Shown: positions 1 through 27,500 of the stretch, piece after piece
Layout: each line of letters starts with the position of its first letter
How positions within the stretch are numbered: the first letter of the stretch is position 1
Source of the DNA: a virus
Taxonomy: Duplodnaviria > Caudoviricetes
Direction: 5' to 3' (one strand)
Virus record (IMG/VR): IMGVR_UViG_3300028025_003604
Span: 1,923-65,922 of that record
Length of the DNA stretch: 64,000 nt
Notes under the pieces: generated by a model
The model's input: the letters and a program-made list of their open reading frames with translations, nothing else
Database searches by the model: none
What the model was told of the DNA's origin: nothing
Program-made: the position numbers and the translations under genes

Positions 1-290
1 AGAGAGGGTAAAAGACACCCTGAATTATCAATACAATTGAATACATATATCTGCTCCTAGATTCAGAGCCTTCTGAACAAGGCTTCGCCTAAAAGCACTT
101 GTATAAGAACAAGCACCCTTAAGCGAATATCTGCTCCCGAGTTCTTCACCCACGTCACGCAGCTCTAGTTACCTAGCAGGGAGTATGATCCCCGTCGCCC
201 CTCATGTCAGCTTAAACATTCCAGTCCTCTGGATAAACATAGCTCGGCCTTTTTTAACTGGTAGCCATCCCATGAGGTAGAACCAGAATG

Positions 291-298
291 CTAAATTA
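291..298 (-). promoter_or_regulatory. putative leftward Bacteroidota-type -7 promoter element (TAATTTAG)
   Basis: One mismatch to TAnnTTTG; points into the hairpin-rich noncoding region 1-280. Confidence 0.35.
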
Positions 299-325
299 CA
301 TCACCTATCTAATATAGGGTGCCAG

Positions 326-334
326 TTATCCACA
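326..334 (+). promoter_or_regulatory. DnaA box TTATCCACA
   Basis: Perfect match to the canonical 9-mer in intergenic DNA. Confidence 0.5.
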
Positions 335-385
335 GCATGGGAATAACACAATATAATAGAGAGAAAGCAGTTTTATATTTACATC

Positions 386-559
386 ATGAACGCCACAATA
401 GAATATATCGATCAGGAAGGAGCTATAATAGCTTCTGTGTATGGTTCAGTTGGCGAGTCGATATATCTGAACGAATCGGAACTAAGATGGATCTATGAGT
501 CTCTGAGGGCCCATTACAGCGATTGTGAAAAGACGGGGAAAACTGGACGTGAAAATTAA
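386..559 (+). CDS. small hypothetical protein (57 aa)
   Basis: Hand-translated ORF MNATIEYIDQEG...; below the ORF-track cutoff. Confidence 0.4.
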   Translation: MNATIEYIDQEGAIIASVYGSVGESIYLNESELRWIYESLRAHYSDCEKTGKTGREN

Positions 560-764
560 AGGGGGATGTGTGGTCGAGGAGGGTGGGTTATACCATATTT
601 CCGGTGGCCACCGACCCAAACGCGAACTCGAAAACGGCAACCGAGTGGGGGTCAAAAAGGCGATTTTGAATTCGAAAAAGGGCCTGCAAACTTACCCCGT
701 GTTAGTTGCCTGACAATCGGAAAACCAATGCAGGCTTACGTTTCAGCCATGGGGGTGTGGGAGT

Positions 765-784
765 GTGTCAGAAAATTGTGTCAG
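765..784 (+). repeat. tandem GTGTCAG-N6-GTGTCAG, same geometry as the repeat at 11391-11410
   Basis: GTGTCAG AAAATT GTGTCAG seen directly. Confidence 0.7.
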
Positions 785-886
785 TCAGGATAGAAAAAGG
801 AAACGAACTAGGGCCATTGCGGTATGGAATGTACGTACGTGTACGCGTAACCGCAGAATCCTAGTAACCCCCTTCCCCTTCCAACA

Positions 887-943
887 ATCCGTAAACCCTA
901 TCAATTACCATCCGTAAAACAACCCATAAATCAACCCGTAAAG
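887..943 (+). repeat. short direct repeats A(T/C)CC(G/A)TAAA x4 upstream of the wHTH gene
   Basis: ATCCGTAAA twice, ACCCATAAA, ACCCGTAAA. Confidence 0.5.
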
Positions 944-953
944 GAACCATCCG

Positions 954-1280
954 ATGAAGATAGAGAAGTACATATTCTGCCTGCCAAAAGCAATCCGGTT
1001 AGCATCCACCCGCACCGGTATATCTAGGCCATTGTACCCCACTGAACTCTTCCTCCTTTATGCCCTCAAGCGCCTACCTTCCCCGTGTACCCAATCACAC
1101 CTCCAAAGGTTCTGCGCTAACGTCTATAATCCGCTTACCCTTACCACCATCCACAAAGGTCTTATGTACCTCTTGGAGCAGGAACTCATCGATCGAAAAT
1201 TGAAGTCTTATTCTCTTTCCCCTCTTGGCAGAGAATACCTTTCACACATACGACAATATCTTATTAATGTCCGTCTCTAG
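954..1280 (+). CDS. winged-helix DNA-binding protein
   Basis: TIHKGLMYLLEQELI...YSLSPLGREYL is a typical wHTH recognition helix and wing. Confidence 0.6.
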   Translation: MKIEKYIFCLPKAIRLASTRTGISRPLYPTELFLLYALKRLPSPCTQSHLQRFCANVYNPLTLTTIHKGLMYLLEQELIDRKLKSYSLSPLGREYLSHIRQYLINVRL

Positions 1281-1390
1281 TCTCTTATATACTATGAGAA
1301 CTACTATACCCCCGAGCTGCCCACTTTTGGGCAATCAGGCCCGTTTTTAATCCTTTTCCTATTTCGTTTACCCAAGCACGTTAGTAAAAA

Positions 1391-1399
1391 TGTGGATAA
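1391..1399 (-). promoter_or_regulatory. DnaA box (TGTGGATAA on +)
   Basis: Perfect 9-mer ~75 bp upstream of the early promoter. Confidence 0.5.
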
Positions 1400-1472
1400 C
1401 TTTTTATCTCTTACTCTCCCAAGGGTTTGAGCCTGCTAAATCTGTTTAGCAGAGGCCTAATTTAAAAATTTA

Positions 1473-1505
1473 TTTGGAAGCGATTATCCATTGACGTTAG
1501 TTTTG
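1473..1505 (+). promoter_or_regulatory. Bacteroidota housekeeping-sigma early promoter
   Basis: -33 TTTG (1473-1476), 21-nt spacer, -7 TAGTTTTG (1498-1505). Confidence 0.75.
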
Positions 1506-1514
1506 TGTCTCAAT

Positions 1515-1546
1515 TCGGGGATGAAGTTTCCCGATGCTCTTTGAAA
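1515..1546 (+). promoter_or_regulatory. hairpin plus boxA-like antitermination element
   Basis: Hairpin TCGGGGA-TGAAGT-TTCCCGA followed by TGCTCTTTGAAA, resembling rrn boxA (TGCTCTTTAACA). Confidence 0.65.
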
Positions 1547-1694
1547 GGTTGGTTACTGAATTCTGCAAAACGGCAGTGGGAGTAAAGGTGCGACTAGCTT
1601 CGGCGTAAAGTCTAAATGGAACCACATAACAAAAGCCCTCGGGCAAGCCCTACCACACCATAGGCAATGAACAGGATTCGCCTACCACCTTTCG

Positions 1695-1705
1695 GTTCTT
1701 TGAAA
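1695..1705 (+). promoter_or_regulatory. second boxA-like element GTTCTTTGAAA
   Basis: Near-identical to the first copy; follows a stem closed by AAAGGTG/CACCTTT. Confidence 0.6.
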
Positions 1706-1935
1706 TTATCGGCGCGAAAGTTTTACATGCGATGCTCTTCACCGGAGCTAACGATGGACATCGGCCCTGCCCCTTACACGGGAGCAACCCACAAACAAGC
1801 AACACCCCGCTAACCACGGCCTAGTCACTTGCTACCCATCTTACCCCTTACATGTAACACGAGTAACCCACCCATCGCCTTCAGGTCTGATTTATCGTCC
1901 TGATGTTTAGCGTAGTCTTGAGGCTAATGGGTTGG

Positions 1936-1990
1936 ATGGTCTAGCGGTAATAACTCCCGCTACTGATGAGACGCAGAACGTCGAAACCAT
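1936..1990 (+). ncRNA. hammerhead ribozyme HH1 (type III)
   Basis: ATGGTC^TAGCGG-loop-CCGCTA CTGATGA GACG-CAGAA-CGTC GAAA CCAT; full core, three stems, GUC site at 1939-1941. Confidence 0.9.
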
Positions 1991-2001
1991 AATCATACAT
2001 C

Positions 2002-2175
2002 ATGAAAAACTTTATTTCAATCATCAAATTTTACTTATTAATCGCCTTGCTTAACCCATTCACCCTTGCCGGTTTAATTTCCGGCTGCCACGGGTTTACA
2101 TTCTTTGGCTTTGTGGTATCTGCCCTTGCTTGTAGTGTCTTCTTCCTAGGTGGAGGAGTTAAAGCGTTCAAATAA
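2002..2175 (+). CDS. small membrane protein (57 aa)
   Basis: Hand-translated MKNFISIIKFLLLIALLNPFTLAG...; two hydrophobic segments; lies between HH1 and HH2. Confidence 0.7.
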   Translation: MKNFISIIKFYLLIALLNPFTLAGLISGCHGFTFFGFVVSALACSVFFLGGGVKAFK

Positions 2176-2195
2176 TTCCCCCGAGCTGCTCACAA

Positions 2196-2247
2196 GATTA
2201 ACTGATGAGGGTTTAATACCCGAAACATCCTTCGGGATGTCTTAATC
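2196..2247 (+). ncRNA. hammerhead ribozyme HH2 (type I)
   Basis: GATTAA CTGATGA GGGT-TTAAT-ACCC GAAA CATCC-TTCG-GGATG TC^ TTAATC; cleavage after 2241. Confidence 0.95.
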
Positions 2248-2260
2248 AAAAAACACCACC

Positions 2261-2428
2261 ATGAAAGTTGAACTAAAAGAGAGAGAAGTATACGGAAAAG
2301 TGCTTCTGTACCCTAAAAACATTAACGCCTGCATTTTTGCTGATTTAATTGGCAAAAAGACATTCGACCAACTAGACCTCTTCCACATACAACAACTAGG
2401 ATACGAGGTTGAAATCATTAAACTATAA
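2261..2428 (+). CDS. small hypothetical phage protein (55 aa)
   Basis: Hand-translated MKVELKEREVYGKVLLYP...KTF...LGYEVEIIKL; A-rich leader. Confidence 0.75.
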   Translation: MKVELKEREVYGKVLLYPKNINACIFADLIGKKTFDQLDLFHIQQLGYEVEIIKL

Positions 2429-2438
2429 AAGCACTAAC

Positions 2439-2645
2439 ATGTACGCAAAATTATCAATGGTGATTGCATCACACCTAAGCGATGCGCAGCACGACTTTGA
2501 ATCAGGTAATGATAAGCACGGGCACTACCGCTTAAACTTCATCAAATTGCTAGTACTTCAAAACCAAAGTTTAGATAAAGAGGTCAATGAAGAGTATCTG
2601 TGGAAGGTATGGAAAGAGTGCGAAGTTGGGGCTCCAAAAGATTAA
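2439..2645 (+). CDS. hypothetical protein
   Basis: ORF 2409..2645, likely start MYAKLS at 2439; GAT-TAA end forms HH3 stem I. Confidence 0.75.
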   Translation: MYAKLSMVIASHLSDAQHDFESGNDKHGHYRLNFIKLLVLQNQSLDKEVNEEYLWKVWKECEVGAPKD

Positions 2646-2691
2646 CTGATGAGGATTCAATATCCGAAACCTGCTCCGGCAGGTCTTAATC
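2640..2691 (+). ncRNA. hammerhead ribozyme HH3 (type I)
   Basis: GATTAA CTGATGA GGAT-TCAAT-ATCC GAAA CCTGC-TCCG-GCAGG TC^ TTAATC; cleavage after 2685. Confidence 0.95.
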
Positions 2692-2705
2692 AAAAAAATT
2701 TTACC

Positions 2706-3044
2706 ATGGAAACCTTACAAATCAAAAAAATTACCGGCCTAACTGAACTTGAGAAAAAAGTATTAACTGCGCTAGTTGATGGCATGTATGCAGAATGGGG
2801 ATTCAGCGATGTTGGAGCTACCGACCTTTCTGAATCTACCGGCATACCAAATAAGTCTATTCGCGGCGTAATTGGTTCGCTAGTTAAGAAGGGTCTAGTT
2901 TATGTGGATGACCGCACTGACATGTGTGACTACCGCAGCAATGACCCTGCATGGGAGCCCATCATATACCTGCAAAACGATGCCGAAGCATTGGTACCTA
3001 ATTGGCAAGAGCAGATAGGCTTCAAATCTGTTATCGAAGATTAA
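2706..3044 (+). CDS. winged-helix DNA-binding protein
   Basis: Start METLQ at 2706; LTELEKKVL...DLSESTGIPNKSIRGVIGSLVKKGLV HTH pattern. Confidence 0.7.
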   Translation: METLQIKKITGLTELEKKVLTALVDGMYAEWGFSDVGATDLSESTGIPNKSIRGVIGSLVKKGLVYVDDRTDMCDYRSNDPAWEPIIYLQNDAEALVPNWQEQIGFKSVIED

Positions 3045-3088
3045 CTGATGAGACTTAATTAGTCGAAACGCCTTCGGGCGTCTTAATC
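3039..3088 (+). ncRNA. hammerhead ribozyme HH4 (type I)
   Basis: GATTAA CTGATGA GACT-TAATT-AGTC GAAA CGCC-TTCG-GGCG TC^ TTAATC; cleavage after 3082. Confidence 0.95.
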
Positions 3089-3101
3089 AAAATCCAATCC
3101 C

Positions 3102-3338
3102 ATGAATGTTATTTTAGTCTCTCGAGACGGCATACTAGATACGCCGGTACTCGTGAAGCAGAACACCACGGCAGAAGCCACCTTTGAATCCATTGTTCGC
3201 GACCTCCTAGGTGAAGACGCCGATGATATAAACTTCTTTTGCGATACTGCCATCGATAAGGTTAACAACTACCTCAAGCCTTCCGGTATCACCATCTCTT
3301 GGTTTGTCGATATTGACGTAAACAACTATAAAAACTAA
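3102..3338 (+). CDS. hypothetical protein
   Basis: ORF with A/C-rich leader directly after HH4. Confidence 0.75.
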   Translation: MNVILVSRDGILDTPVLVKQNTTAEATFESIVRDLLGEDADDINFFCDTAIDKVNNYLKPSGITISWFVDIDVNNYKN

Positions 3339-3341
3339 ATC

Positions 3342-3413
3342 ATGAAAAGCACAACTACCGCTATCATCATTGTCATTGTCTTCTTGTTAATCACCCTAGC
3401 AGATAACATATGA
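3342..3413 (+). CDS. 23-aa hydrophobic peptide
   Basis: MKSTTTAIIIVIVFLLITLADNI; ATGA overlap with the next ORF. Confidence 0.45.
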   Translation: MKSTTTAIIIVIVFLLITLADNI

Positions 3414-3574
3414 GAAAAGTATATTTTTTCAGCTATCAACTAGCTGATGGGAACGAAATACTCTGCGCTATTAAGACTTGCATATATCCTGAACGGACCA
3501 AAATATGGAAGCGCCTCTTAACCCTTGTTATTAACAGAGAGGACGTAGTAAGTATTAAGTACTCCCTAGAATAG
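3410..3574 (+). CDS. small hypothetical protein (54 aa)
   Basis: Hand-translated MRKVYFFSYQLADG...; fills the gap. Confidence 0.55.
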   Translation: MRKVYFFSYQLADGNEILCAIKTCIYPERTKIWKRLLTLVINREDVVSIKYSLE

Positions 3575-3585
3575 TTTACCCCCGA

Positions 3586-3629
3586 ACTGCCCCCATACCG
3601 ATGGCATCCGGTTCGTGACCGGAGGCAGT
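3586..3629 (+). ncRNA. mini tRNA-like element E1
   Basis: ACTGCC/GGCAGT closing stem, small hairpin CCAT-ACCG-ATGG, T-arm-like TCCGG-TTCGTGA-CCGGA. Confidence 0.65.
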
Positions 3630-3650
3630 CCTAATCAAAATCCAAACCAC

Positions 3651-3917
3651 ATGAACTATCAACAAATCAAAGCCGCTCAGAAGGAGCAGGGCTACGACCA
3701 ATGGCAACACATCATCAACACCGGCCATGCATGGAAGACGGAGGGCGCTATAGGACGCGAGGCAATGCACTTGCTAGAATCCGGCGCATGTATGCTTCCC
3801 AAGACTGCCTTCCAAGACTACTATGGCAACAGAATCCCATCACGTGACGACCTCAAGGCCGGAACTAAAGGGACCTTCCAAAACTCAGTAAACTATTACA
3901 CTAACAATGCTTGGTAA
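3651..3917 (+). CDS. hypothetical phage protein
   Basis: Start MNYQQ at 3651; GHAWKTEGAIGREAMHLLESGAC. Confidence 0.75.
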   Translation: MNYQQIKAAQKEQGYDQWQHIINTGHAWKTEGAIGREAMHLLESGACMLPKTAFQDYYGNRIPSRDDLKAGTKGTFQNSVNYYTNNAW

Positions 3918-3937
3918 CAGGCGCAACTATTAACACT

Positions 3938-4150
3938 ATGGAAAAAGTAACCTTCGAATTTCACCCCTACGTCCAAGACTCTTGGGATTGCATGATTTCA
4001 ATTCACAGAGGGAACGAACTTGTTGTTCAGTACAAATTTCAGGCGCACATTATTGATGGGGATATTCAATTTGACCTTGACCCAGAATATGCTTACAACC
4101 CGCCTCAACGATACCTATCATTTATCACTTCAACCTTATTAAATCGATAA
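3938..4150 (+). CDS. hypothetical protein
   Basis: Likely start MEKVTF. Confidence 0.65.
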   Translation: MEKVTFEFHPYVQDSWDCMISIHRGNELVVQYKFQAHIIDGDIQFDLDPEYAYNPPQRYLSFITSTLLNR

Positions 4151-4154
4151 CACT

Positions 4155-4382
4155 ATGAAAAAGAATCTAACCGCAGAAATGCTATTAAACGAATTGCTTG
4201 ATATGAAAGCAAAGCACTACGACCTGTCTAAAATTGAACTAAGCTATCGTTTCGACCCTGATAGTGACGTAGAACCAATCACCTATGTTGGTGAAGGTCT
4301 CTTCGATGCAGATACTAACAATGTTCTAGAAGAACTTGTATTTATGACCGATGCGTCTGAATACGAAGGAGAGGGAATATAA
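4155..4382 (+). CDS. acidic hypothetical protein
   Basis: ORF in operon context. Confidence 0.7.
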   Translation: MKKNLTAEMLLNELLDMKAKHYDLSKIELSYRFDPDSDVEPITYVGEGLFDADTNNVLEELVFMTDASEYEGEGI

Positions 4383-4391
4383 CCTCCACCC

Positions 4392-4432
4392 AACCTACCG
4401 CCATGGGCGTGGGCTTCGATGCCGAGTAGGTT
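4392..4432 (+). ncRNA. mini tRNA-like element E2 (imperfect)
   Basis: AACCTAC/GTAGGTT 7-bp stem, CGCC-ATG-GGCG hairpin, GGC-TTCGAT-GCC T-like hairpin. Confidence 0.55.
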
Positions 4433-4452
4433 CTCATCAAAACTCAAACAAC

Positions 4453-4614
4453 ATGCAACAACAAGCATCAAAAACACGTAGCCACTTTGTACTATCTCTA
4501 GCTAAAAGTTTCTTAAGAGCCGGAGCATGTGTATGGCTTTACCTAGGCGACTATCAAGTAGCTGCCGGACTATTCTTAATCGCCGAAACCTTCGGTATTC
4601 TAGAAGAACTTTAA
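4453..4614 (+). CDS. small membrane protein
   Basis: Start MQQQASK; HFVLSLAKSFLR...LIAETFGILEEL. Confidence 0.7.
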   Translation: MQQQASKTRSHFVLSLAKSFLRAGACVWLYLGDYQVAAGLFLIAETFGILEEL

Positions 4615-4624
4615 AAACTAAATC

Positions 4625-4819
4625 ATGAGAAACAGAATCCACCCACCAATCTACTCTGTCAAGCCTAGTGGCCTAATCATCAAGCGCTGCAATAAACTGA
4701 GCGCATATGCAAGAAGGATGGAAGTATTGAAGGAACTCGGACTCGACGTAAAGGAATACGCCAAAGAGTGCAAGCTAAGGTCCTTATTCAGGATGCAGGC
4801 TGCAGGTCTTCTAGCATAA
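4625..4819 (+). CDS. hypothetical protein
   Basis: ORF in operon context. Confidence 0.65.
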   Translation: MRNRIHPPIYSVKPSGLIIKRCNKLSAYARRMEVLKELGLDVKEYAKECKLRSLFRMQAAGLLA

Positions 4820-4826
4820 TACCCCC

Positions 4827-4872
4827 GAGCTAGTAGGAATGACCGAAACCGGAGCGATACCGGTACTAGCTC
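4827..4872 (+). ncRNA. mini tRNA-like element E3
   Basis: GAGCTAGT/ACTAGCTC stem, linker, ACCGG-AGCGATA-CCGGT 5-bp stem with 7-nt loop abutting the closing strand. Confidence 0.7.
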
Positions 4873-4890
4873 CTCATTAAAACCTCAAAC

Positions 4891-5112
4891 ATGGATTACC
4901 CTTTAGAACTAAAAAAATATCTAGCTAGTAAGATGGCTAAGGTAGATGTTGAATGCATGGGAGTAGACTTCCAACAAGCATATGAATACCATTTAGCCAA
5001 CGACCCATTTACCCTCCTTGAATATTGGGCCGAATACTTCGGAGCATTTGACGACATGGGCGAAAACTTATTCATGGAGCTAAGCCCTGAGTCTATAGCA
5101 AAAAATAAATAA
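4891..5112 (+). CDS. hypothetical protein
   Basis: ORF directly after E3. Confidence 0.7.
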   Translation: MDYPLELKKYLASKMAKVDVECMGVDFQQAYEYHLANDPFTLLEYWAEYFGAFDDMGENLFMELSPESIAKNK

Positions 5113-5124
5113 GATAGTCCCCCG

Positions 5125-5168
5125 AACTGCGAGGTATGACCGAAGTAGGAGCGAAACCTACCGCAGTT
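5125..5168 (+). ncRNA. mini tRNA-like element E4
   Basis: AACTGCG/CGCAGTT 7 bp, GGT-ATG-ACC, GTAGG-AGCGAAA-CCTAC. Confidence 0.7.
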
Positions 5169-5212
5169 GCTAATCAAAAACTCAAGAGCGAGAGTCCAAA
5201 CGCACCAAACCT

Positions 5213-5557
5213 ATGTCAACTACTACAACATCAACCTTACAGATGCACGTCTTCACATTAGACAACGCACTAAGCTACCTGAAAGAAAATTTACAAACAG
5301 ACACAGACTTCAGCGGTGATAATGGCCCTGAGTTTCTAGATGATGACGCCGATGGATACGATTCAAATTTAGAGTACTACCTAGAAATGTTTTGGTCGAA
5401 GCACAAGCCGAAAGATGAAAAGACCCTGAATAATTTCTTCTTAAAGTTTTTTCAGTTCATGCAGAAGAGGGACCAATACTATTCAAACATTGAGTTCGAC
5501 CTTAAGTTTATTGGCGACCAAATAGTTTTAGCAGTGATGATGGAATGTGATTGCTAG
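5213..5557 (+). CDS. acidic hypothetical protein
   Basis: ORF with AAACCTATG leader. Confidence 0.7.
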   Translation: MSTTTTSTLQMHVFTLDNALSYLKENLQTDTDFSGDNGPEFLDDDADGYDSNLEYYLEMFWSKHKPKDEKTLNNFFLKFFQFMQKRDQYYSNIEFDLKFIGDQIVLAVMMECDC

Positions 5558-5564
5558 AACCCCT

Positions 5565-5608
5565 GAGCCGAGAGAGTGGATAAGGCAGAGCGATACTGCC
5601 CTCGGTTC
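5565..5608 (+). ncRNA. mini tRNA-like element E5
   Basis: GAGCCGAG/CTCGGTTC, D-loop-like linker AGAGTGGATAA, GGCAG-AGCGATA-CTGCC. Confidence 0.7.
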
Positions 5609-5623
5609 CTAAATCCCAAACCT

Positions 5624-6169
5624 ATGAGCCTACAAGACGCGGTAATCACCGCAGAAAAAAATGGTGGAGTCTCTTACAACCTTCACCATGGGTACATGAA
5701 TCCTGAGACCGGATACATGGTATCCCTAGCAGGAAGAGAGAGGCAGTCGCCATCACTCACCTATCACAACGTCCTCGGTTTTGTAAACGACAACATTGAA
5801 GCATTCGAGCCCACAACCTTCTTAGGCCTATGGCAGGAAGAAGGGACGTGGATAATGGATGTGTCTTTATGCATCCCGACACTAGCGACTGCGCTGCGGG
5901 TTGCGGAATCAAATGGCCAACGTGCCATCTACGACAATGCTAACAAAAAATCTATATACCTAAACCCTAACCGCATGGAAGAGCTAATCGAACAAATCAA
6001 GCAGCATGACTTTTGGTACATGATGTCCGAAGACTCAAGAGTATTTGACCAAGGTAAAGAGACCCAGAAATCGATCGAAGAGGGGCTTAAAAATTACCCT
6101 AAAGAAGAGGTCCTGAATAATCTACCCGAACACCTTCACGAATTTATAAAATCTATCTATGGCGCATAA
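5624..6169 (+). CDS. two-domain early protein; N-terminal domain possibly SAM-lyase-like
   Basis: Start MSLQDA; GYMVS...GLW...DVS...A...Q.AIYD pattern; second domain begins at in-frame ATG 5975. Confidence 0.55.
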   Translation: MSLQDAVITAEKNGGVSYNLHHGYMNPETGYMVSLAGRERQSPSLTYHNVLGFVNDNIEAFEPTTFLGLWQEEGTWIMDVSLCIPTLATALRVAESNGQRAIYDNANKKSIYLNPNRMEELIEQIKQHDFWYMMSEDSRVFDQGKETQKSIEEGLKNYPKEEVLNNLPEHLHEFIKSIYGA

Positions 6170-6377
6170 ACTAACAGGCGTAGAGCTCTACAATAGCGAG
6201 CTCAAGCGCAAGACAAAAGTATACGACGTTGCAAACAAAAAACTAATCGCTGAATTCGAAAGCGTGTGGGCTGCCTCCAACTACACCGGAGTCAAATGTA
6301 GTTACATCACCCAGTGTATGAGTAAGAAGTACCGCTCACATACAAATCGCCTAGGCATAACAATCACCTTCAGATGA
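6159..6377 (+). CDS. stand-alone NUMOD1-like DNA-binding protein
   Basis: VYD...LIAEFESVWAASNYTGV...ITQC motif. Confidence 0.65.
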   Translation: MAHKLTGVELYNSELKRKTKVYDVANKKLIAEFESVWAASNYTGVKCSYITQCMSKKYRSHTNRLGITITFR

Positions 6378-6462
6378 TAACACTACTAATCGTTCCTATT
6401 GCACTTGCTATCCTTATTGGTAACAATGCACTTAGTCCTGAATCTAATTTAGACTAACCCCC

Positions 6463-6509
6463 GAACCGGAAACCTAACGAGGTTATGGTATTCGCTCTAC
6501 CTCCGGTTC
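6463..6509 (+). ncRNA. mini tRNA-like element E6
   Basis: GAACCGGA/TCCGGTTC, AACCT-AACG-AGGTT, GGTA-TTCGCTC-TACC. Confidence 0.6.
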
Positions 6510-6522
6510 CTAAACCTACTTT

Positions 6523-6624
6523 ATGAAAAAGTTTAATTGGACCTTCTTAATTGCATGGACAACTATCCTCACCATAACATACATGTTGTGGTCATTCATC
6601 TTTAAACTAATATCCTACATATGA
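6523..6624 (+). CDS. 33-aa membrane peptide
   Basis: MKKFNWTFLIAWTTILTITYMLWSFIFKLISYI; ATGA overlap with the next gene. Confidence 0.5.
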   Translation: MKKFNWTFLIAWTTILTITYMLWSFIFKLISYI

Positions 6625-6860
6625 AAAGTACATTTCAACAAGTGATGGATGCAATAAATAACGGCGAAAAATTCTCATGGAATTTTAACGGCCTTACTGC
6701 ATTCAGAAACACCGACAGGTTAGTTCATGAAATACCTAACCCAACCGAGGCGTCCATTGGATGGATACTTCAAGAGTTCTGCGTTAAAGCATTATACGAT
6801 GCTGATTTATTAATCTCCTTCGAGCCATCACCTGAAGGGTTAAAAATATATTACAAATGA
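6621..6860 (+). CDS. hypothetical protein
   Basis: ORF in operon context. Confidence 0.65.
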   Translation: MKSTFQQVMDAINNGEKFSWNFNGLTAFRNTDRLVHEIPNPTEASIGWILQEFCVKALYDADLLISFEPSPEGLKIYYK

Positions 6861-6956
6861 GAACTACCTACCCAACAGAAACCCTATCATTCAACGATTG
6901 GATTATCTACATCCATAAAGAAAACATCCGTATTAGAATTCAAAAACTAAACCACT

Positions 6957-7148
6957 ATGAACAAAATCTCGGCAGCAAAAAAAGTGTTTCACACTATCAA
7001 CGAAGAATTGGACAAGGTACTATTGGGGGAAGAAAGTTCCCGCCGATTGGTTGTGCAGAAATTGAAATTGATTAATGAGGAACTATCCGATGCAGTAATT
7101 GACCTATTGAAAAAAAATGTAACCTATGAACAAGAGCGAAGTATTTAA
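6957..7148 (+). CDS. hypothetical protein
   Basis: ORF with AAACCACTATG leader. Confidence 0.6.
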   Translation: MNKISAAKKVFHTINEELDKVLLGEESSRRLVVQKLKLINEELSDAVIDLLKKNVTYEQERSI

Positions 7149-7476
7149 TGGCCTATGTGAGTATGCAGTTGAAGTTACCGGTATCGATATAAGGTACGCC
7201 AAAGGAAGACGTGAAGAGTATGTAAGGCTCAGGGCCGCTATCATGGTTATCCTTATGAACTACTACGGAGTCACCACTACATTGGCCGGACACTTTTTTA
7301 ATCGCGACCACACCACGGCAGTACACCACAAAGCAAATCACCCATGGCGATATAAGTCCGACGATGAATACGCCTATCTGTATGATGAGTTGGTGAAGCA
7401 CGTTTTACTATGTAAAAGAAATCAAGTAGACCTAGATGTACAAGAGGTACTCGAGTACATTAAATTAATTGGTTAG
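7126..7476 (+). CDS. DnaA C-terminal (domain IV)-like HTH protein
   Basis: R...VRLRAAIM.IL...TTTLAGHFFNRDHTTAVH matches the DnaA RDHTTV signature. Confidence 0.75.
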   Translation: MNKSEVFNGLCEYAVEVTGIDIRYAKGRREEYVRLRAAIMVILMNYYGVTTTLAGHFFNRDHTTAVHHKANHPWRYKSDDEYAYLYDELVKHVLLCKRNQVDLDVQEVLEYIKLIG

Positions 7477-7482
7477 TGAATA

Positions 7483-7571
7483 ATGCGGGTAGCTTAATGG
7501 TCACAATGGAAGTGACCCTTGAGGGAGGAAAGCGCTTAAATGAGATGTGGGTTCGATTCCCATCCCGCGTT
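7483..7571 (+). ncRNA. aberrant tRNA-like RNA (expanded D-loop, stub anticodon arm)
   Basis: ATGCGGG/CCCGCGT acceptor, GCTT/AAGC D-stem, GTGGG-TTCGATT-CCCAT T-arm. Confidence 0.65.
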
Positions 7572-7797
7572 CATAAATATAAAAGTTGGCGAGGTGAGAT
7601 ACCTTGATTACACCTGAGCAGGATGGTGGCCAATGGATGCTGCTAGTTATTAAGCCTATAGGATGAAATACCCTTGTACCGATGCCTTGCGGTTGGGTTA
7701 GACAAAGTTTTCTTGCGTTGCGGGTTCTATTAGGCGTTTTTTCATATCCCGTTAAAGAAAGCAAAGGGGCTTATGGTTGTGCCAGAACAACCAACAT

Positions 7798-7891
7798 AGT
7801 CAGGTCGCTCAAATTTTGGGAGCACATGCATCATTGTGTGTTCAATACAAGTCTGCTTAGGCTTGTGCAGGTTCGAATCCTGTCCTGACTA
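7798..7891 (+). ncRNA. tRNA-like RNA with non-canonical anticodon loop and long variable arm
   Basis: AGTCAGG/CCTGACT acceptor, GCTC/GAGC D-stem, GCAGG-TTCGAAT-CCTGT T-arm. Confidence 0.65.
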
Positions 7892-7976
7892 CAAACTTAT
7901 GCACAGAGTTATTCATGTAAGTATTTATACTGAATGTAACGCTCTTGCATAAACGTAGATTTGTAAAAAACAACCT

Positions 7977-8201
7977 ATGAACCAAACAACAAACCATTCG
8001 TCTGAAACGCTTAATATAACATGTGCTTATCCAAAAACTCAAACTGAATTTTCGTATGTAAGCGCTTCTCACCATAGTGTAATCGTTATAGTAAGCTCAC
8101 TATATCAAAAGCTATCAGACAAAGAAAAGTTGGAAATGCTTTCTAAATTAAATGATTGGACTTACAATGAAGCACTTAAAATTTTTAACCAAACCCAATA
8201 A
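7977..8201 (+). CDS. hypothetical protein
   Basis: ORF with AACCTATG leader. Confidence 0.6.
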   Translation: MNQTTNHSSETLNITCAYPKTQTEFSYVSASHHSVIVIVSSLYQKLSDKEKLEMLSKLNDWTYNEALKIFNQTQ

Positions 8202-8204
8202 TAT

Positions 8205-8453
8205 ATGGAACCACAAACCATCGAGCAACCATGCTCCCAAGAGCCTATCGCCTCAGTAGAGTATACTCCAACAAAGCAGGAGGCATTACGGCAGTATGAA
8301 ATTAGAATAGAATTCCTATCAAGAGGATGTATTGTTCGTGTAGGCTGTAAGTCTATACCTTTTGAGAGTGTAGATGCAGCAATGAAATGCTTAAGCGAGT
8401 ATGTAAAAGACCCTATCACCAAAGAAAAAGAGTGGGTGAAAATCTTAAATTAA
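8205..8453 (+). CDS. hypothetical phage protein
   Basis: IEFLSRGCIVRVGCKSIPF. Confidence 0.7.
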   Translation: MEPQTIEQPCSQEPIASVEYTPTKQEALRQYEIRIEFLSRGCIVRVGCKSIPFESVDAAMKCLSEYVKDPITKEKEWVKILN

Positions 8454-8460
8454 AGATGTT

Positions 8461-8591
8461 AGTCAGGTGGCGGAATTGATAGACGCTAAGTTAAGTTTAC
8501 ACACGAGATGCGACCTCATTAAAAGCTATAACGATGAGTTTAAATTGGTTCAGAGAACCACCTCTTGCAGGTTCGAATCCTGCCCTGACTA
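8461..8591 (+). ncRNA. tRNA-Leu-like frame with a ~80-nt insert replacing the anticodon/variable domain
   Basis: AGTCAGG TG GCGGAATTGATAGACGC ... GCAGG-TTCGAAT-CCTGC CCTGACT A. Confidence 0.65.
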
Positions 8592-8604
8592 CAAAAAGTA
8601 GCGT

Positions 8605-9225
8605 ATGAAATTAAATTCCAACATTCCTAGCTTTAAGGCGCTAGTAAAAAAATCCTACTTCACGAAGGACGCCAACGATAGTAACGAATACTACAACGTG
8701 TATGTCTTCGGCCTTCAGTCAGTATCCGGTAAGATAGTCACGTTCCATGTACTAACCGACTCCGGTATGCTAAGGAGCAGGGTGCCATTGTCTGAGATAT
8801 ATACCAAGGTACCAACGGGTGACATACCATTTAACTACAAGCAGCTATGGGATTGCTTTAGTGAGAATGTATCCGTAGTTGAGTATGACTTCCTTGCATT
8901 TCACAGAGCTCAAGTAGTACTGAGAGATGGCAGTAAAGTATGGGCCACGTATGTATTCACTATTGATTGGTTCAACAACCCATATAGTGATGAACCTTCC
9001 GACTATAAGTGCGGCCACGTGCTAGAATCGGATGATGGCTACTTGTTATGTATGCCGAACAACAGAATCTTTTGGAAGGATTCTAATTGGGTAACGAAAA
9101 GTTTACCGGAGGACCTGAAGCAGTTCAAGGTAGACACCGACCTTCCTTCTGTTGAAAACCAATCGGACCGATGGGTGGCAGAGGATACCAATTCATTTTA
9201 TTACGACATAATACAAGAGCTATGA
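8605..9225 (+). CDS. conserved hypothetical phage protein
   Basis: LWDCFS...YVFTIDW...PNNRIFWKD motifs recalled from aquatic phages; function unknown. Confidence 0.7.
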   Translation: MKLNSNIPSFKALVKKSYFTKDANDSNEYYNVYVFGLQSVSGKIVTFHVLTDSGMLRSRVPLSEIYTKVPTGDIPFNYKQLWDCFSENVSVVEYDFLAFHRAQVVLRDGSKVWATYVFTIDWFNNPYSDEPSDYKCGHVLESDDGYLLCMPNNRIFWKDSNWVTKSLPEDLKQFKVDTDLPSVENQSDRWVAEDTNSFYYDIIQEL

Positions 9226-12890: not shown

Positions 12891-12913
12891 AAGGCCCCCG
12901 ATCTGGGGGCTTT
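12891..12913 (+). terminator. intrinsic terminator after int
   Basis: GCCCCC-GATCT-GGGGGC followed by TTT. Confidence 0.7.
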
Positions 12914-22711: not shown

Positions 22712-22736
22712 AGAGCCCCCAGTTCGGGGGCTTTTT
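22712..22736. terminator. terminator between convergent genes
   Basis: AGCCCCC-AGTTC-GGGGGCT followed by TTTT. Confidence 0.75.
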
Positions 22737-24556: not shown

Positions 24557-27500
24557 TTATTGATTTGGAAATTCAGATAATGCTTCTGCTCTTGCGTCTT
24601 CGATCACACCTGAGATGTAAGCCTTGAGCTCTTTTCTTCTTTGCTTCCTGTCAGGGATAGCGAGTATCTTGCTGATGTCTTTCCATTCTTCTTGGAGATA
24701 CTGCTTAGTGATTTGACCTGAACGCTTAGTGTACTGGTAGTACTCATCGTCGGTCATGTCACGAGTTTCCTCGCTACTAGGATCGTCGCTCACATATAGA
24801 GGGCGAGTCTCAGGCTTACCGATGTAGATACCGTTCTCGTTAAGAGCTGCAAGCAACTCATCCTTACTAGGCTTACCTACTGTGATAGGTAATAACTTCT
24901 CTGAAGTAGATGGTGTAACTGGTTCACCGAATACATCTAGGATCGGATTTAATCCATCATTCAAATAAGGAATGTCTCTGTAGATTCTTTCAACACCCTT
25001 AGCCGCCTTAATCGGAGAGTCCATCGCTTCACGTGTGAACTTGATAGCCTGCTGAGTGAAGTTTGATACAGCCATTGTTTTAGCTTGATCAGAACCCCAG
25101 CTTATAATACGATCTCCAAGACTTGATGACTGGTTGTATTCTTGCTTAGGCTTGATCACCTCAACGAAGTCTTGAATACCTTTCATTACAGACTTGTCGT
25201 ATAATGCTGTAACCATACCTGCTGCTGCGATTTTTGCCTCGTTAGTAGGCTGATCACTGCTATTGTACTTTCCGCTATCATGCATAGCTCCTACAGCAGC
25301 TAACACTGGAGCAACAGGCCAGTCCTTATAAGAGATGTATCTGCCGCTCTTAAGCTTGATAGAGTAAGGTCTCCATCCGCTCTTCATTAACTCGTAGTTT
25401 TTCTGAGGATCGCCGGAACCATTAGCTGTTACTTCGAATAGATCATCATCATCGTCACCAGTTAATCCGCTTAACATTATGAATGTTGATAAACCGATAG
25501 TAGCCTTGATGGCGAAGTCGGCTCTCTCATCTGCAGTAAGCTTTCTTCTAACGTTTCCTTTTAAGGAAGTATCAACAACTGTACTTCCAACGGCAGATTT
25601 TACATAACCCAATGGAGTGTAGTTTAAAGCATTCTCTGTAAGGTTAACAACGATACGAGTGAACGGTAAAAACATTCTAGATAGTTTAGTAGACTGCTGG
25701 AATGAAAGAGCTAATTTGTACACAGGTCTCATGAATCCTTCTGGCTCGTAGTTAAGAGTAACTCTCTTACCGAACTCATCAGCCTCCTTCTTAATGTCCT
25801 TGCTTCTACCTTCTTCTAAGATCTGACCAACCCTTCTTCTGTATCTTACAGTGCCCGGAAGGTATCCTTCTGACTTAGCCTTATCAGCTGCCTCAGCTTT
25901 TTTCTCAGAAGTCTTGTTTAGTATTTCGTCAACACGCTTCTTAATATCCATATCAGGATTAGCCTTACCTTCTTCCTTAGCGGTATTGTAAGCCATCACT
26001 CTTGAGATAGCTTCTGAGTTTGCTCTAGCAAATGCAGCATCCGTTGCAGCTAGTGCACGGCCCACATACTTTAATACCTTTGGACTTAATCCACCAGCCC
26101 AGTCTAATACCTTACCAGCTTTATCTCCAGCCACTTGCTTCCAAGAGAAGAACTCTAGGATGTTGCCCTGCTTGAACTTATCTCCGTCTTGAGCGGTTAC
26201 ACCTGTCTTTAAAATATCAGCAGCGTCATTTGCGCCCTGCTTAATTCCAGCTAAGAAACCTTGGATACCATTAATGAATGGCATTACGCTCTTGGTTTTG
26301 ATTGCCTCACGAGTACCAACCACAGCACCTTCTGCGAAAGAGTTCCATAAGTTGGCAAAGAAGTTGGTAGACTGGGTAGTGATACCACTCAGGATGTGAG
26401 CGTACCATATAGCCTCCATAATATCTGTGGCAGCTACCGGAGTAATTGAGCTGATGTAGTTTCCTAAAGCATAAGTCGCCTCATCCTTTGGCAAACCTTC
26501 GTCAGCATTTCTTACCTCTTTAGCTAGGTCTGTGATAGTCTTGCGCTGCTCTTCTGTTAATGGCTTGCCGTTCTCGGATTCTACCTGATCCATGATCTTC
26601 TTAACATAGAACTGTAACATAGATGGCGAACCTTTAGAGTTCTCATAGAAGCGTCTGAATGCCTGTATAGCCTGACCAAGTTCTGTACCTAATGGCGCCA
26701 CTTGGTTTACTAATTGGGCCTGCTTTTCACTTAACCTTTGAGCGGTTTCTTTATCACCCTTAATCTCCGCCATATTGATAGCGGTGTCGATCTTATCCAT
26801 AACCGCACCACTCATCCAGATCCTAACACGGTTAGGTATATCTTGAGGCTGAGTAAGAAGATAGTCTAATGCATCTTCTGGGTTCTTTTCATCTATAAAT
26901 GCTTGAGCCTCTTCAGCTGTTTGTTTATTGGAGACAACAAAGTATTTCTTTGCGTCATCGTTTATCTTAGCTATGGTATCAACTCCTCTGTCAGGGAAAG
27001 TTTTAGATAACCCCCGAGCTCTCTGGCCCTCTTCAAGGTCACCAACAATATCTTCCACTGATGGGTTAAGGGCTGGGTCATACTTAACATCTTCAATAAG
27101 ATCCATGGCCTCATCTTTAGTCAACCCCTTTTCATCCATAATGATTTGAGCAACATCTTCGTCACTAAGTTTACCTAACATATTAGCTACACTCTTTCTG
27201 GTATCGGCATCGATATTGGCGCCACCTTTAGAAAGCTGTGCACCACCAACCTGATCTTTAAAGAAAGCCTTAACAGCTAAGTCGGTAGCGTTATCGATCA
27301 TAGACTTATCGAAGTCTATACCCTTACCCCACTTATCCATAAGGTCTCTTATAACCTTTTGTACGTAGTTGATTAGGGTATTGATAATATCTCCAGATGT
27401 AGCCTGATTGTAGCCGTATACTGTGTCTCTAAACTCATTCTTATCCTTGGCCATAATACCGGCCATGTTATCTCTGAAATCTTTGTTCGTTAATAACTCA

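What the first reader, a model, noticed from the sequence alone, without database searches (positions are those of the whole stretch)
3586..6509. Six ~45-nt mini-tRNA elements occupy the same junction positions after the hammerheads stop
Seen: elements at 3586, 4392, 4827, 5125, 5565 and 6463. Each has a 6-8-bp closing stem, a short linker or tiny hairpin, and a 4-5-bp hairpin (imperfect in E2) with a ~7-nt T-loop-like loop (TTCGTGA, TTCGAT, AGCGATA, AGCGAAA, AGCGATA, TTCGCTC) directly abutting the closing 3' strand. This is the acceptor + T-arm top half of a tRNA. Sequences differ but pairing is preserved. Each follows a C-rich tract shortly after a stop codon and precedes the same type of leader (e.g. 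CTAATCAAAA) as the hammerheads. Established: the acceptor/T coaxial stack is what RNase P and RNase Z recognise (cf. mascRNA). Inference: these are host RNase P/Z processing signals functionally interchangeable with the hammerheads, or an undescribed structured-RNA or ribozyme class.
Basis: partly seen in the sequence, partly recalled or inferred. Interest (0 to 1): 0.88.

Follow-up and report, generated by a model that had tools for sequence, protein, structure and literature searches.

The report
Mini-tRNA spacers between phage early genes
Six short RNA folds that copy only the top half of a tRNA sit between the early genes of this uncultured phage, in the same slots that self-cutting hammerhead RNAs fill nearby, and they most likely tell the host's tRNA-trimming enzymes where to cut the long message, though no cut has been shown.

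Summary
The six elements are real. Each folds as described. Five match a covariance model of a large family at E 1e-14 to 4e-5. E2 is a divergent subtype with clear relatives.

The family has 138 matches, 110 of them distinct, in 37 of 41 viral loci. Both helices covary strongly: 98% of cells are paired against 75% in shuffles, and 10 of 12 pairs show double changes. In 46 of 110 members the hairpin loop is the canonical tRNA T-loop, TTCGANT. No Rfam family matches.

The elements start a median of 3 nt after a stop codon. They end most often 19 nt before the next ATG, the same register as the hammerhead cut. In 3 of 83 downstream-gene clusters, some phages have a hammerhead and others a mini-tRNA.

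Best reading (about 0.6): these are tRNA top-half mimics used as RNase P and RNase Z cut marks. Cleavage itself is untested, because no RNA runs were listed.

Two things remain unexplained: the invariant CCCCC leader and the outer stem sequence. Both also occur as a stand-alone genome-wide motif.

This scan has found the same kind of element before on other phage DNA. I found no paper describing it.

The parts
3579..3631 (+). E1. Leader CCCCC (3579-3583), an 8-position closing stem with one A.C mismatch, a 4-bp side hairpin, a 5-bp T-like stem with loop TTCGTGA, and the 3' strand. The stop codon of the upstream ORF is at 3572-3574 and the next ATG is at 3651.
   Evidence: 45.3 bits, E 1.3e-9; MFE -19.1, z -2.35
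4383..4433 (+). E2, a divergent subtype. C-rich tract CCTCCACCC directly after the TAA at 4380-4382, a 7-bp closing stem, a 4-bp side hairpin, a 3-bp hairpin with the 6-nt loop TTCGAT, and 2 nt before the 3' strand. The next ATG is at 4453.
   Evidence: ortholog in L009 with a G-C to U-A change; subtype members that carry the full CCCCCGAACTG frame; z -1.66. Not found by model R1 at E <= 10.
4822..4872 (+). E3. CCCCC, a 9-bp closing stem, a tiny side hairpin followed by GAA, and a T-like hairpin with loop AGCGATA. The upstream stop is at 4817-4819 and the next ATG is at 4891.
   Evidence: 64.4 bits, E 1.7e-14; z -3.36
5119..5169 (+). E4. CCCCC, a 7-bp closing stem with an unpaired terminal G.G, a 3-bp side hairpin followed by GAA, and a 5-bp T-like stem with loop AGCGAAA. 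The upstream stop is at 5110-5112 and the next ATG is at 5213, giving a 43-nt leader that is conserved in L009.
   Evidence: two fully compensated pairs against L009; 62.5 bits; z -3.62
5560..5608 (+). E5. CCCCT, an 8-bp closing stem with one G.U, the single-stranded linker GAGAGTGGATAA, and a 5-bp T-like stem with loop AGCGATA. The upstream stop is at 5555-5557 and the next ATG is at 5624.
   Evidence: 49.7 bits; z -2.86; the ortholog of the downstream gene is preceded by a type III hammerhead in L137
6458..6509 (+). E6. CCCCC, an 8-bp closing stem, a 5-bp side hairpin, and a 4-bp T-like stem with loop TTCGCTC. The upstream stop is at 6455-6457 and the next ATG is at 6524.
   Evidence: two compensated closing-stem pairs against L009; 28 bits, E 3.7e-5; z -3.03
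1937..3088 (+). Context: four hammerhead ribozymes in the upstream slots of the same operon. A type III hammerhead lies at 1937-1989. Type I hammerheads lie at about 2196-2247, 2640-2691 and 3039-3088. The type I hammerheads cut 19-20 nt before the next ATG and leave a leader that begins TTAATCAAAA.
   Evidence: weak Rfam matches to 1937-1989 and 3039-3088; core motifs and cut sites read from the sequence
2178..2191 (+). The same CCCCCGAGCTGC box after a stop codon, here followed by a hammerhead rather than a mini-tRNA. This shows that the box can be separated from the tRNA-like fold.
   Evidence: the same composite in L040 and L089

Best explanation
The six elements belong to a large, uncatalogued family of phage RNA elements of about 45-50 nt. 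They mimic the top half of a tRNA. An acceptor-like stem stacks on a T-arm, and a short linker or side hairpin replaces the D and anticodon arms.

They are transcribed as part of the polycistronic early message made by the host RNA polymerase. Each lies between the stop codon of one small gene and the A/C-rich leader of the next.

Most likely the host's tRNA-maturation endonucleases treat them as pre-tRNA. RNase Z would cut just 3' of the stem and create the 5' end of the downstream mRNA. RNase P may cut between the CCCCC leader and the stem and free the upstream mRNA. The operon would thus be cut into single-gene messages, the job the self-cleaving hammerheads do in the first four slots.

Shown here: the fold, its covariation, the tRNA T-loop in relatives, the fixed position, and hammerhead/mini-tRNA swaps in front of orthologous genes.

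Inferred: transcription as a single RNA, the identity of the enzymes, the cut sites, and the benefit to the phage.
For: Fold. All six fold as P1, a small P2 and a T-like P3 abutting the 3' strand.

Family. The pattern CCCCCGAACTG-N28-45-CAGTTCC hits 50 viral contigs, many with 2-5 copies each. Model R1 finds 138 matches (110 distinct) in 37 of 41 loci.

Covariation.
- On A2 (51 sequences), 98.9% of cells are paired, against 76.1% in shuffles and 23-47% when partners are slid. Nine of 12 pairs have changes on both sides.
- On A3 (110 distinct), 98.2% are paired against 74.9% in shuffles, and 10 of 12 pairs have double changes. All five T-stem pairs are among them.

tRNA likeness.
- The loop is TTCGANT in 46 of 110 members.
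- CG is at loop positions 3-4 in 105 of 106 seven-nucleotide loops.
- The stack is an uninterrupted 13 bp in 66 of 106 members and 12 bp in 17.

Position.
- The median distance from an upstream stop to the C-tract is 3 nt, and 77 of 111 are within 15 nt.
- The distance from stem end to first ATG is 18-20 nt in 67 of 112, with a mode of 19.
- The three type I hammerheads of the window cut 19, 20 and 19 nt before the ATG. The leaders then read NTNATCAAAA in the same register.

Strand. All copies in a locus lie on one strand, in 37 of 37 loci.

Slot swaps.
- In 3 of 83 clusters of downstream proteins, some members are preceded by a hammerhead and others by a mini-tRNA. One includes the gene after E5.
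- The gene after E1 is preceded by canonical-T-loop members in L133 and L142.

Negative control.

Other checks.
- No terminator-like site lies at the elements.
- No phage RNA polymerase or RNase domain was seen in the 17 larger ORFs scanned against Pfam.

Precedent. Plant mitochondrial t-elements carry the GGTTCRANYCC motif, and their ends coincide with mRNA ends attributed to RNase Z and RNase P (Forner 2007, PMC1920247, passages read).
Against: - No cleavage has been observed, and no RNA-seq run holding this phage is listed.
- RNase P and RNase Z are not sequence-specific, yet the CCCCC leader and the six outer stem pairs are nearly invariant. G-C is in 94 of 103 cells and C-G in 110 of 110. 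These enzymes do not explain that conservation.
- The same 10-mer occurs 134 times outside mini-tRNAs in 31 family loci. It has no closing stem there, so another reader of that sequence probably exists.
- None of the window's six copies has the canonical loop. AGCGAWA lacks the two U residues, TTCGTGA lacks the A at loop position 5, and E2 has a 6-nt loop on 3 bp. They may be poor substrates.
- The stack is 13 bp, not the 12 bp of a tRNA, unless the outer G-C is read as a -1:73 pair.
- An encoded CCA follows in only 5 of 110 members.
- Wobble pairs do not show which strand is functional: there are 7 G.U cells and 10 A.C cells.
- The A2 members were picked with a structural filter, and the search pattern fixed the outer stem. 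This inflates the paired percentage for those positions.
- Slots are dispensable. Orthologs of several downstream genes have no element at all.
Confidence: 0.6

Rival explanations
1. The functional unit is the CCCCCGARCU(G) box, read by a sequence-specific phage or host factor such as an endoribonuclease, a termination factor or an RNA-binding protein. The tRNA-like fold would only present, hide or insulate the box, or protect the 3' end of the upstream mRNA. It would not be a substrate of RNase P or RNase Z.
For: - The box is nearly invariant while the inner stem and T-stem covary freely.
- It stands alone 19 times in the window, by the CCCCCGA count.
- Counting CCCCCGANC, it stands alone 134 times in 31 family loci, 100 on the same strand as the mini-tRNAs and 34 on the opposite strand.
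- CCCCCGANC occurs 224 times in 35 family loci, against 4 for the reversed control.
- It precedes a hammerhead at 2178 and in L040 and L089, and it forms the 5' half of terminator hairpins at 12895 and 22724 and in L055, L089, L117 and L024.
Against: - It does not explain why a canonical tRNA T-arm and a fixed 13-bp stack are kept.
- Members without the C-tract exist: 11 of 110 are aligned without a leader.
- E2 has lost the box yet is conserved in L009.
- No candidate factor was found in the Pfam scans.
- Many stand-alone copies lie inside coding regions on either strand relative to the gene, 43 sense and 39 antisense. That looks more like a DNA-level motif.
Confidence: 0.17
2. The excised minihelices are the product. 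They would be abundant anticodon-less tRNA top halves that act in trans. Examples are decoys or sponges for a host tRNA-binding enzyme or an anti-phage nuclease, or substrates for CCA addition and charging. In this reading, punctuation of the operon is a by-product.
For: - There are many copies per genome, up to 7 per locus, all in the earliest transcription unit.
- The acceptor-stem sequence is invariant with a G-C pair on top, like an identity element.
- Linker type and loop type go together: 43 of 43 single-strand ATGGT linkers have TTCGANT loops, and 8 of 8 GAGAGTGG linkers have AGCGATA. This would fit a conserved elbow-like tertiary contact.
Against: - The strict placement between stop codon and leader, and the swaps with hammerheads, are what a cis-acting cut site predicts. 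A trans-acting RNA does not need them.
- There is no anticodon loop for anticodon nucleases to attack.
- The linker-loop association may simply reflect descent of subfamilies.
Confidence: 0.1
3. They are a new class of self-cleaving ribozyme that replaces the hammerhead.
For: - They occupy the same slots as hammerheads and sit in ribozyme-rich operons.
- No Rfam family matches them.
Against: - The only invariant bases outside the helices are the CCCCC leader and the CG of the loop.
- The junctions, where a catalytic core would lie, differ completely between four subtypes.
- 46 of 110 members carry a plain tRNA T-loop.
Confidence: 0.05
4. They are DNA-level features, such as cruciform or inverted-repeat sites, small mobile inverted-repeat elements, or transcription terminators.
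For: - The closing stem is an inverted repeat.
- Elements come and go between relatives.
- Wobble pairs give no strand signal.
Against: - There is no T-run after the stem.
- The elements always lie on the coding strand of the flanking genes, in 37 of 37 loci.
- The T-loop sequence reads as a tRNA motif only on that strand.
- The helices keep pairing through many different sequences, which fits a folded single strand.
Confidence: 0.03

Closest known systems
t-elements of plant mitochondria (Forner et al. 2007, PMC1920247; passages read)
   Same: Both are degenerate tRNA-like folds lying beside protein-coding genes in longer transcripts. Both keep the T-arm motif GGTTCRANYCC. The ends of t-elements coincide with mRNA 5' and 3' ends, which the authors attribute to RNase Z and RNase P.
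   Different: - t-elements are about 70 nt with non-canonical cloverleaves. They are few per genome, organellar, and have mapped ends.
- The phage elements are 41-50 nt with no D or anticodon arm. They carry an invariant CCCCC leader and outer stem, occur up to 7 times per operon, and swap with hammerheads. No ends have been mapped for them.
Mitochondrial tRNA punctuation (recalled; only search listings were seen)
   Same: In both, tRNA-shaped units between ORFs of a polycistronic transcript serve as cut marks for RNase P and RNase Z.
   Different: In mitochondria the punctuation marks are working tRNAs. Here they have no anticodon and cannot decode.
mascRNA at the 3' end of MALAT1 (recalled; abstract of 10.64898/2026.01.19.700226 seen in the listing)
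   Same: Both are small tRNA-like modules inside a longer RNA. Recognition by tRNA-processing enzymes defines the end of the host transcript.
   Different: mascRNA is eukaryotic, a single copy and a 58-nt cloverleaf-like fold. Here there is a bacterial-virus operon with many minimal copies.
Clustered hammerhead ribozymes flanking genes in phages and prophages (Perreault et al. 2011, PMC3088659; passages read)
   Same: Both occupy the same genomic niche, between genes of polycistronic phage RNAs, and are presumed to do the same job. Hammerheads occupy the first four slots of this very operon.
   Different: Hammerheads cut themselves. The mini-tRNAs lack the hammerhead core and would need host enzymes. 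The passages found do not mention tRNA-like partners: 'tRNA' occurs once in the paper, in the reference list.
Acceptor/T-arm minihelix model substrates of RNase P and tRNase Z (recalled from the enzymology literature; no paper was read here)
   Same: Both are a coaxial acceptor stem plus T stem-loop without the lower half of the tRNA, which is known to suffice for recognition in vitro.
   Different: The known examples are laboratory constructs, usually 12 bp with a 3' CCA. The natural elements have 13 bp, a bulged linker or side hairpin, and no encoded CCA.

Membership tests
tRNA (Rfam RF00005) | Cloverleaf with D arm and anticodon arm, detectable by the tRNA covariance model or by ARAGORN | tested here: not met
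   None of the six elements matches any Rfam family at E <= 10. ARAGORN and Rfam find only the tRNA-like genes at 7483-7571 and 7798-7892. None of the 20 copies in L117, L137 and L055 matches at E <= 1.
tRNA (Rfam RF00005) | T-arm with a 7-nt loop of the type TTCGANT closed by G-C, directly abutting the acceptor 3' strand | tested here: inconclusive
   Met in 46 of 110 distinct family members. The window's six copies have variant loops that keep only the CG at positions 3-4. Abutment holds for five of the six. E2 has 2 nt between the hairpin and the 3' strand.
tRNA-like processing signals (t-element kind) | An acceptor-like stem stacked on a T-arm, supported by covariation | tested here: met
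   98.2% of cells are paired against 74.9% in shuffles, and 10 of 12 pairs have double changes. The stack is 13 bp in 66 of 106 members.
tRNA-like processing signals (t-element kind) | Placed at the borders of mRNAs within a longer transcript | tested here: met
   The median distance from the upstream stop is 3 nt. The first ATG is 18-20 nt away in 67 of 112 members. The elements are on the same strand as the flanking ORFs. That the operon is one transcript is inferred.
tRNA-like processing signals (t-element kind) | RNA ends coincide with the element's ends, and the element is cleaved by RNase P and/or RNase Z | not testable with these tools
Hammerhead ribozyme | Conserved core CUGANGA ... 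GAAA around a three-way junction, with the cleavage-site triplet | tested here: not met
   The core is absent from all six elements. The Rfam hammerhead models hit only 1937-1989 and 3039-3088.
Other self-cleaving ribozymes in Rfam (twister, twister-sister, pistol, hatchet, HDV-like) | A match to the family covariance model | tested here: not met
   No match at E <= 10 in window 1-9000, and none at E <= 1 in L117, L137 and L055.
Intrinsic transcription terminator | G+C-rich hairpin followed directly by a run of T | tested here: not met
   None of the 8 terminator-like sites in 1200-8000 overlaps an element. The stems are followed by C and an A-rich leader.

The most novel reading that the evidence does not exclude
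The mini-tRNAs have two functions. RNase P and RNase Z cut them out of the early message, and they then accumulate as abundant anticodon-less tRNA top halves. Their invariant acceptor end would be an identity element for a specific partner. That end is the G-C pair on top of AACUG/CAGUU, followed by C, which resembles the 8-bp G-1:C73 acceptor stem of bacterial tRNA-His (recalled). The partner could be the CCA-adding enzyme plus a synthetase, or a host tRNA-directed defence or decay factor that the phage titrates in the first minutes of infection. The stand-alone CCCCCGARCT boxes would be read by the same partner.
Probability: 0.1. Interest if true: 0.85.

Novelty: new variant of a known kind. 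Interest (0 to 1): 0.62.

Why it matters
If host RNase P and RNase Z do cut these elements, bacteriophages use tRNA punctuation, a principle known from mitochondria. They would use it in its most stripped-down form, and interchangeably with self-cleaving ribozymes.

- It would explain why ribozyme clusters exist in phage operons, namely to cut the message into single-gene units with a defined leader.
- It would show that host-dependent and autonomous cutters are alternative solutions to the same problem.
- It would add a widespread RNA family to the catalogues. The family is absent from Rfam and occurs in dozens of uncultured freshwater phage contigs.
- It would offer a compact natural part for separating genes in Bacteroidota.
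- The nearly invariant CCCCC-plus-stem box, which also stands alone across the genomes, points to a further, unknown layer of recognition.

Tried and rejected
RNA evidence. The look-up of sequencing runs listed 22 runs, all DNA, with no RNA holder. No ends could therefore be mapped, and read laying was not used.

First pattern scan. CCCCYGAR-N18-32-GAGCGAWAC was too loose. Of 116 stretches, only about 10 were real members when checked for stems.

Protein-based search. The protein after E5 found only one related viral contig, L009.

Bacterial genomes. The frame pattern gave at least 120 single hits in unrelated taxa. The 80 that were fetched score at most 31.8 bits with R1 and show no T-arm. 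So there is no prophage or host clue. I used these hits as a negative control.

Cultured phages.
- blastn of window 1-8000 found nothing.
- A canonical member found only short chance or tRNA T-arm matches.
- tblastn with the primase-helicase gave Flavobacteriia-type phages at 30-34% identity. This is only a hint at the host.

Ideas dropped.
- Wobble-pair asymmetry to show which strand is functional: 7 G.U against 10 A.C cells, so no signal.
- Stand-alone CCCCCGA boxes as cryptic mini-tRNAs: their best downstream stems (2-6 bp) match the random distribution.
- The box selected in antisense orientation as a terminator or cleavage signal. This was suggested by the window (13 antisense against 4 sense) but does not hold in the family loci (39 antisense against 43 sense).
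- A coding explanation for the box: copies inside genes fall in all frames.
- A promoter for a phage RNA polymerase (N4-like hairpin or T7-like) or an ECF-type -35 element. No polymerase domain was found, the giant 2864-aa ORF has no Pfam match, and I saw no conserved -10 by eye. This is not excluded.
- Known ribozyme classes: rejected by Rfam.

Literature searches. Searches found no paper on tRNA-like minihelices between phage genes.

Script slips.
- In one search my hammerhead cut site is 1 nt too early. The distances quoted are corrected by hand.
- In one search the queries labelled E2> and E6> were out of frame, and their rows should be ignored.
- In one search the 35-aa ORF threshold misses many short downstream genes. 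therefore uses the first ATG.

Full report
**Setting.** The window is bases 1923-65922 of a 65.9-kb IMG/VR virus record with a 127-bp terminal overlap.
- Genes run on the + strand from about 380 to 22650. They are many small ORFs, followed by an integrase-family protein, a Rad52-like protein, a YqaJ exonuclease, a primase-helicase, a phosphoesterase and a dNMP kinase.
- Genes run on the - strand from 22737 to the end, including a 2864-aa ORF with no Pfam match.
- The primase-helicase is 30-34% identical to those of Riemerella, Cellulophaga, Tenacibaculum and Flavobacterium phages. The leaders have no Shine-Dalgarno sequence and are A/C-rich, so a Bacteroidota host is likely (inference).
- No RNA polymerase or RNase domain was seen in the 17 ORFs scanned.

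**The observation.** The six elements exist as described.
- Each begins with a C-tract 0-6 nt after a stop codon. The tract is CCCCC in four, CCCCT in E5 and CCTCCACCC in E2.
- Each has a 7-9-bp closing stem (P1) and a side hairpin or short linker (P2).
- Each has a 3-5-bp hairpin with a 6-7-nt loop (P3). In five of the six, P3's 3' strand runs straight into the P1 3' strand.
- The minimum-free-energy folds reproduce this, with z-scores of -1.7 to -3.6.
- After P1 come a C and a leader such as CTAATCAAAA or TCATCAAAA. The next ATG follows at 19, 19, 18, 43, 15 and 14 nt.
- No Rfam family matches at E <= 10, and no terminator-like site overlaps.
- Four hammerheads fill the preceding slots.

**Relatives.**
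- A contig whose protein is 73% identical (L009) has orthologs of E2, E4, E5 and E6. Compensatory changes occur in P1 (E6: two pairs) and in P3 (E4: two pairs; E2: one pair).
- A first loose pattern scan was mostly noise but revealed real members.
- The frame CCCCCGAACTG-N28-45-CAGTTCC then hit 50 viral contigs, up to 5 copies each.
- I built model R1 from a 51-sequence alignment, A2. R1 finds 138 matches, 110 of them distinct, in 37 of 41 loci at E <= 0.001.
- In the window R1 finds five elements and nothing else of comparable score.
- E2 belongs to a subtype with a 3-bp P3 and the loop TTCGAT. Members of that subtype in other phages carry the full frame.

**Covariation.**
- On A2, 98.9% of 612 cells are standard pairs, against 76.1% in shuffles and 23-47% with slid partners. 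Nine of 12 pairs change on both sides.
- On the model-made alignment A3, 98.2% of 1279 cells are paired against 74.9% in shuffles, and 10 of 12 pairs change on both sides. All five P3 pairs are among them, each with four pair types.
- Three caveats apply. I chose the A2 members with a stem filter. The outer six P1 pairs were fixed by the search pattern. A3 is fitted to the model.
- As a control, the same pattern in bacterial genomes gave hits that score at most 31.8 bits and align only at the fixed ends. Only the 80 fetched loci were scored.

**Why tRNA-like.**
- In 46 of 110 distinct members the P3 loop is TTCGANT, and the arm reads GGTTCGAWTCC, the signature of the tRNA T-arm.
- 105 of 106 seven-nucleotide loops keep CG at positions 3-4.
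- P1 plus P3 form an uninterrupted stack of 13 bp in 66 of 106 members and 12 bp in 17. A tRNA has 12 (established). The thirteenth is the outer G-C pair.
- Four subtypes differ only in what replaces the lower half of the tRNA:
  1. A single-stranded ATGGT-type linker, with TTCGANT loops in 43 of 43.
  2. A 2-3-bp hairpin followed by GAA, mostly with AGCGAWA loops.
  3. A GAGAGTGG linker, with AGCGATA loops in 8 of 8.
  4. A 4-5-bp hairpin, mostly with YTCGTGA loops.
- The window holds subtypes 2 (E3, E4), 3 (E5) and 4 (E1, E6) plus the E2 type. It has no canonical copy.
- The orthologous slot in front of the gene after E1 holds canonical-loop members in L133 and L142. The variants therefore appear to be equivalents of the canonical form.

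**Position and interchange.**
- The C-tract starts a median of 3 nt after the stop of an upstream ORF of at least 35 aa. 77 of 111 are within 15 nt.
- The first ATG lies 18-20 nt after P1 in 67 of 112, with a mode of 19 in 35.
- The window's type I hammerheads cut 19, 20 and 19 nt before their ATG and leave TTAATCAAAA. A cut after the C that closes P1 would leave CTAATCAAAA or CTCATCAAAA in the same register (my script's cut was 1 nt early and is corrected).
- All copies in a locus are on one strand, in 37 of 37 loci.
- In 20 of 21 loci with a same-strand hammerhead-core match, a hammerhead lies 5' of the mini-tRNA array. This count is at regex level, and several contigs are near-duplicates.
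- I clustered the proteins encoded just downstream of 116 mini-tRNAs and 26 hammerhead cores. Three of 83 clusters hold both kinds. One joins the gene after E5 (mini-tRNA here and in L009 and L136) with its L137 ortholog behind a type III hammerhead.
- Other orthologs have no element at all, so the slots are not essential.

**Mechanism.** The best-supported reading is tRNA-style punctuation.
- Host RNase Z would cut after the stem. The rarity of an encoded CCA (5 of 110) fits this pathway.
- RNase P may cut at the CCCCC/stem border.
- This is inferred from established enzyme specificity for the acceptor/T-arm stack (recalled) and from the precedent of plant mitochondrial t-elements (PMC1920247).
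- It is not shown. No RNA run holds this phage and no cultured relative was found.

**What does not fit.**
- The CCCCC leader and the outer P1 sequence are nearly invariant. Structure-reading enzymes do not explain this.
- CCCCYGAR occurs 24 times in the window against 3.9 expected. CCCCCGARCT occurs 15 times in the genome against 0 for the reversed control.
- In 31 family loci, 84 copies of CCCCCGANC lie in mini-tRNAs and 134 stand alone, 100 on the mini-tRNA strand and 34 on the other.
- The stand-alone copies have no closing stem beyond chance. They lie in all reading frames and on either strand relative to the local gene.
- Some copies precede hammerheads or form half of terminator hairpins.
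- A second, sequence-specific reader of this box, on RNA or DNA, is therefore likely. Its relation to the mini-tRNAs is open.

**Novelty.**
- Nine full-text searches found no description of such elements in phages.
- In Perreault 2011 'tRNA' occurs once, in the reference list, and the passages found do not mention tRNA-like partners.
- The principle is known from organelles and from MALAT1. A minimal, multi-copy form in phages that swaps with ribozymes appears undescribed.
- This scan has reported the same kind of element on at least eight other phage sequences, so it is recurrent rather than unique to this window.

Noticed in passing
window, CCCCCGA at 23 places: + strand 1309, 2178, 3579, 4822, 5119, 6458, 11831, 12323, 12895, 14460, 27011, 28220, 37362, 42129, 47909, 51711, 53483, 57225, 60269; - strand 15129, 21303, 22724, 40696: The motif (A/T-rich)-CCCCCGA-N-CT is strongly over-represented and strand-biased, with 19 copies on + and 4 on -. 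It also stands alone inside genes in all frames. In 31 family loci there are 134 stand-alone copies, 100 on the mini-tRNA strand. Its function is unknown. It overlaps the 5' end of the mini-tRNAs.
   Followed up: partly
window 12893-12912 and 22712-22731: Two hairpins of the form GCCCCC-GA(T/A)CT-GGGGGC, each followed by a T-run on one strand. They lie at the end of the integrase-like gene and at the point where the + and - gene blocks converge. Here the CCCCCGA box is half of an intrinsic-terminator-like stem. Similar box-plus-terminator sites occur in L055, L089, L117 and L024.
   Followed up: partly
L040 1994-2015 and 2492-2513; L157, L055 4650-4675, L133, L146, L161: In some relatives the mini-tRNA is followed by CCAA and a small extra hairpin (TGCN-ATAA-NGCA type) with compensatory changes, before the leader. 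It could be a protective 5' hairpin for the downstream mRNA.
   Followed up: no
window 7483-7571 and 7798-7892: Two tRNA-like genes lie further down the same operon. One matches Rfam tRNA at 35 bits with a 28-nt insertion in the D region. ARAGORN calls the other a tRNA of undetermined type with a 2-base anticodon. Neither is followed by an encoded CCA. They may be further punctuation marks rather than decoders.
   Followed up: no
21 family loci, e.g. L164 11648-13010, L040 747-1185, L089 4255-4760: Hammerhead cores lie 5' of the mini-tRNA array in 20 of 21 loci that have both on one strand. The order 'ribozymes first, mini-tRNAs after' seen in the window is therefore a family trait. This is a regex-level count, and some contigs are near-duplicates.
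   Followed up: partly
window 5170-5212 and L009 370-412: The leader after E4 is unusually long at 43 nt and is almost unchanged in L009, including the stretch AAGAGCGAGAG. It may hold a further element.
   Followed up: no
family alignment A3: The type of linker and the loop sequence of the T-like hairpin go together: ATGGT linker with TTCGANT in 43 of 43, and GAGAGTGG linker with AGCGATA in 8 of 8. This reflects either descent of subfamilies or a tertiary contact like the D-loop/T-loop elbow of tRNA.
   Followed up: partly
window 24557-33151 (- strand): A giant 2864-aa ORF has no Pfam domain at E <= 0.01.
   Followed up: no
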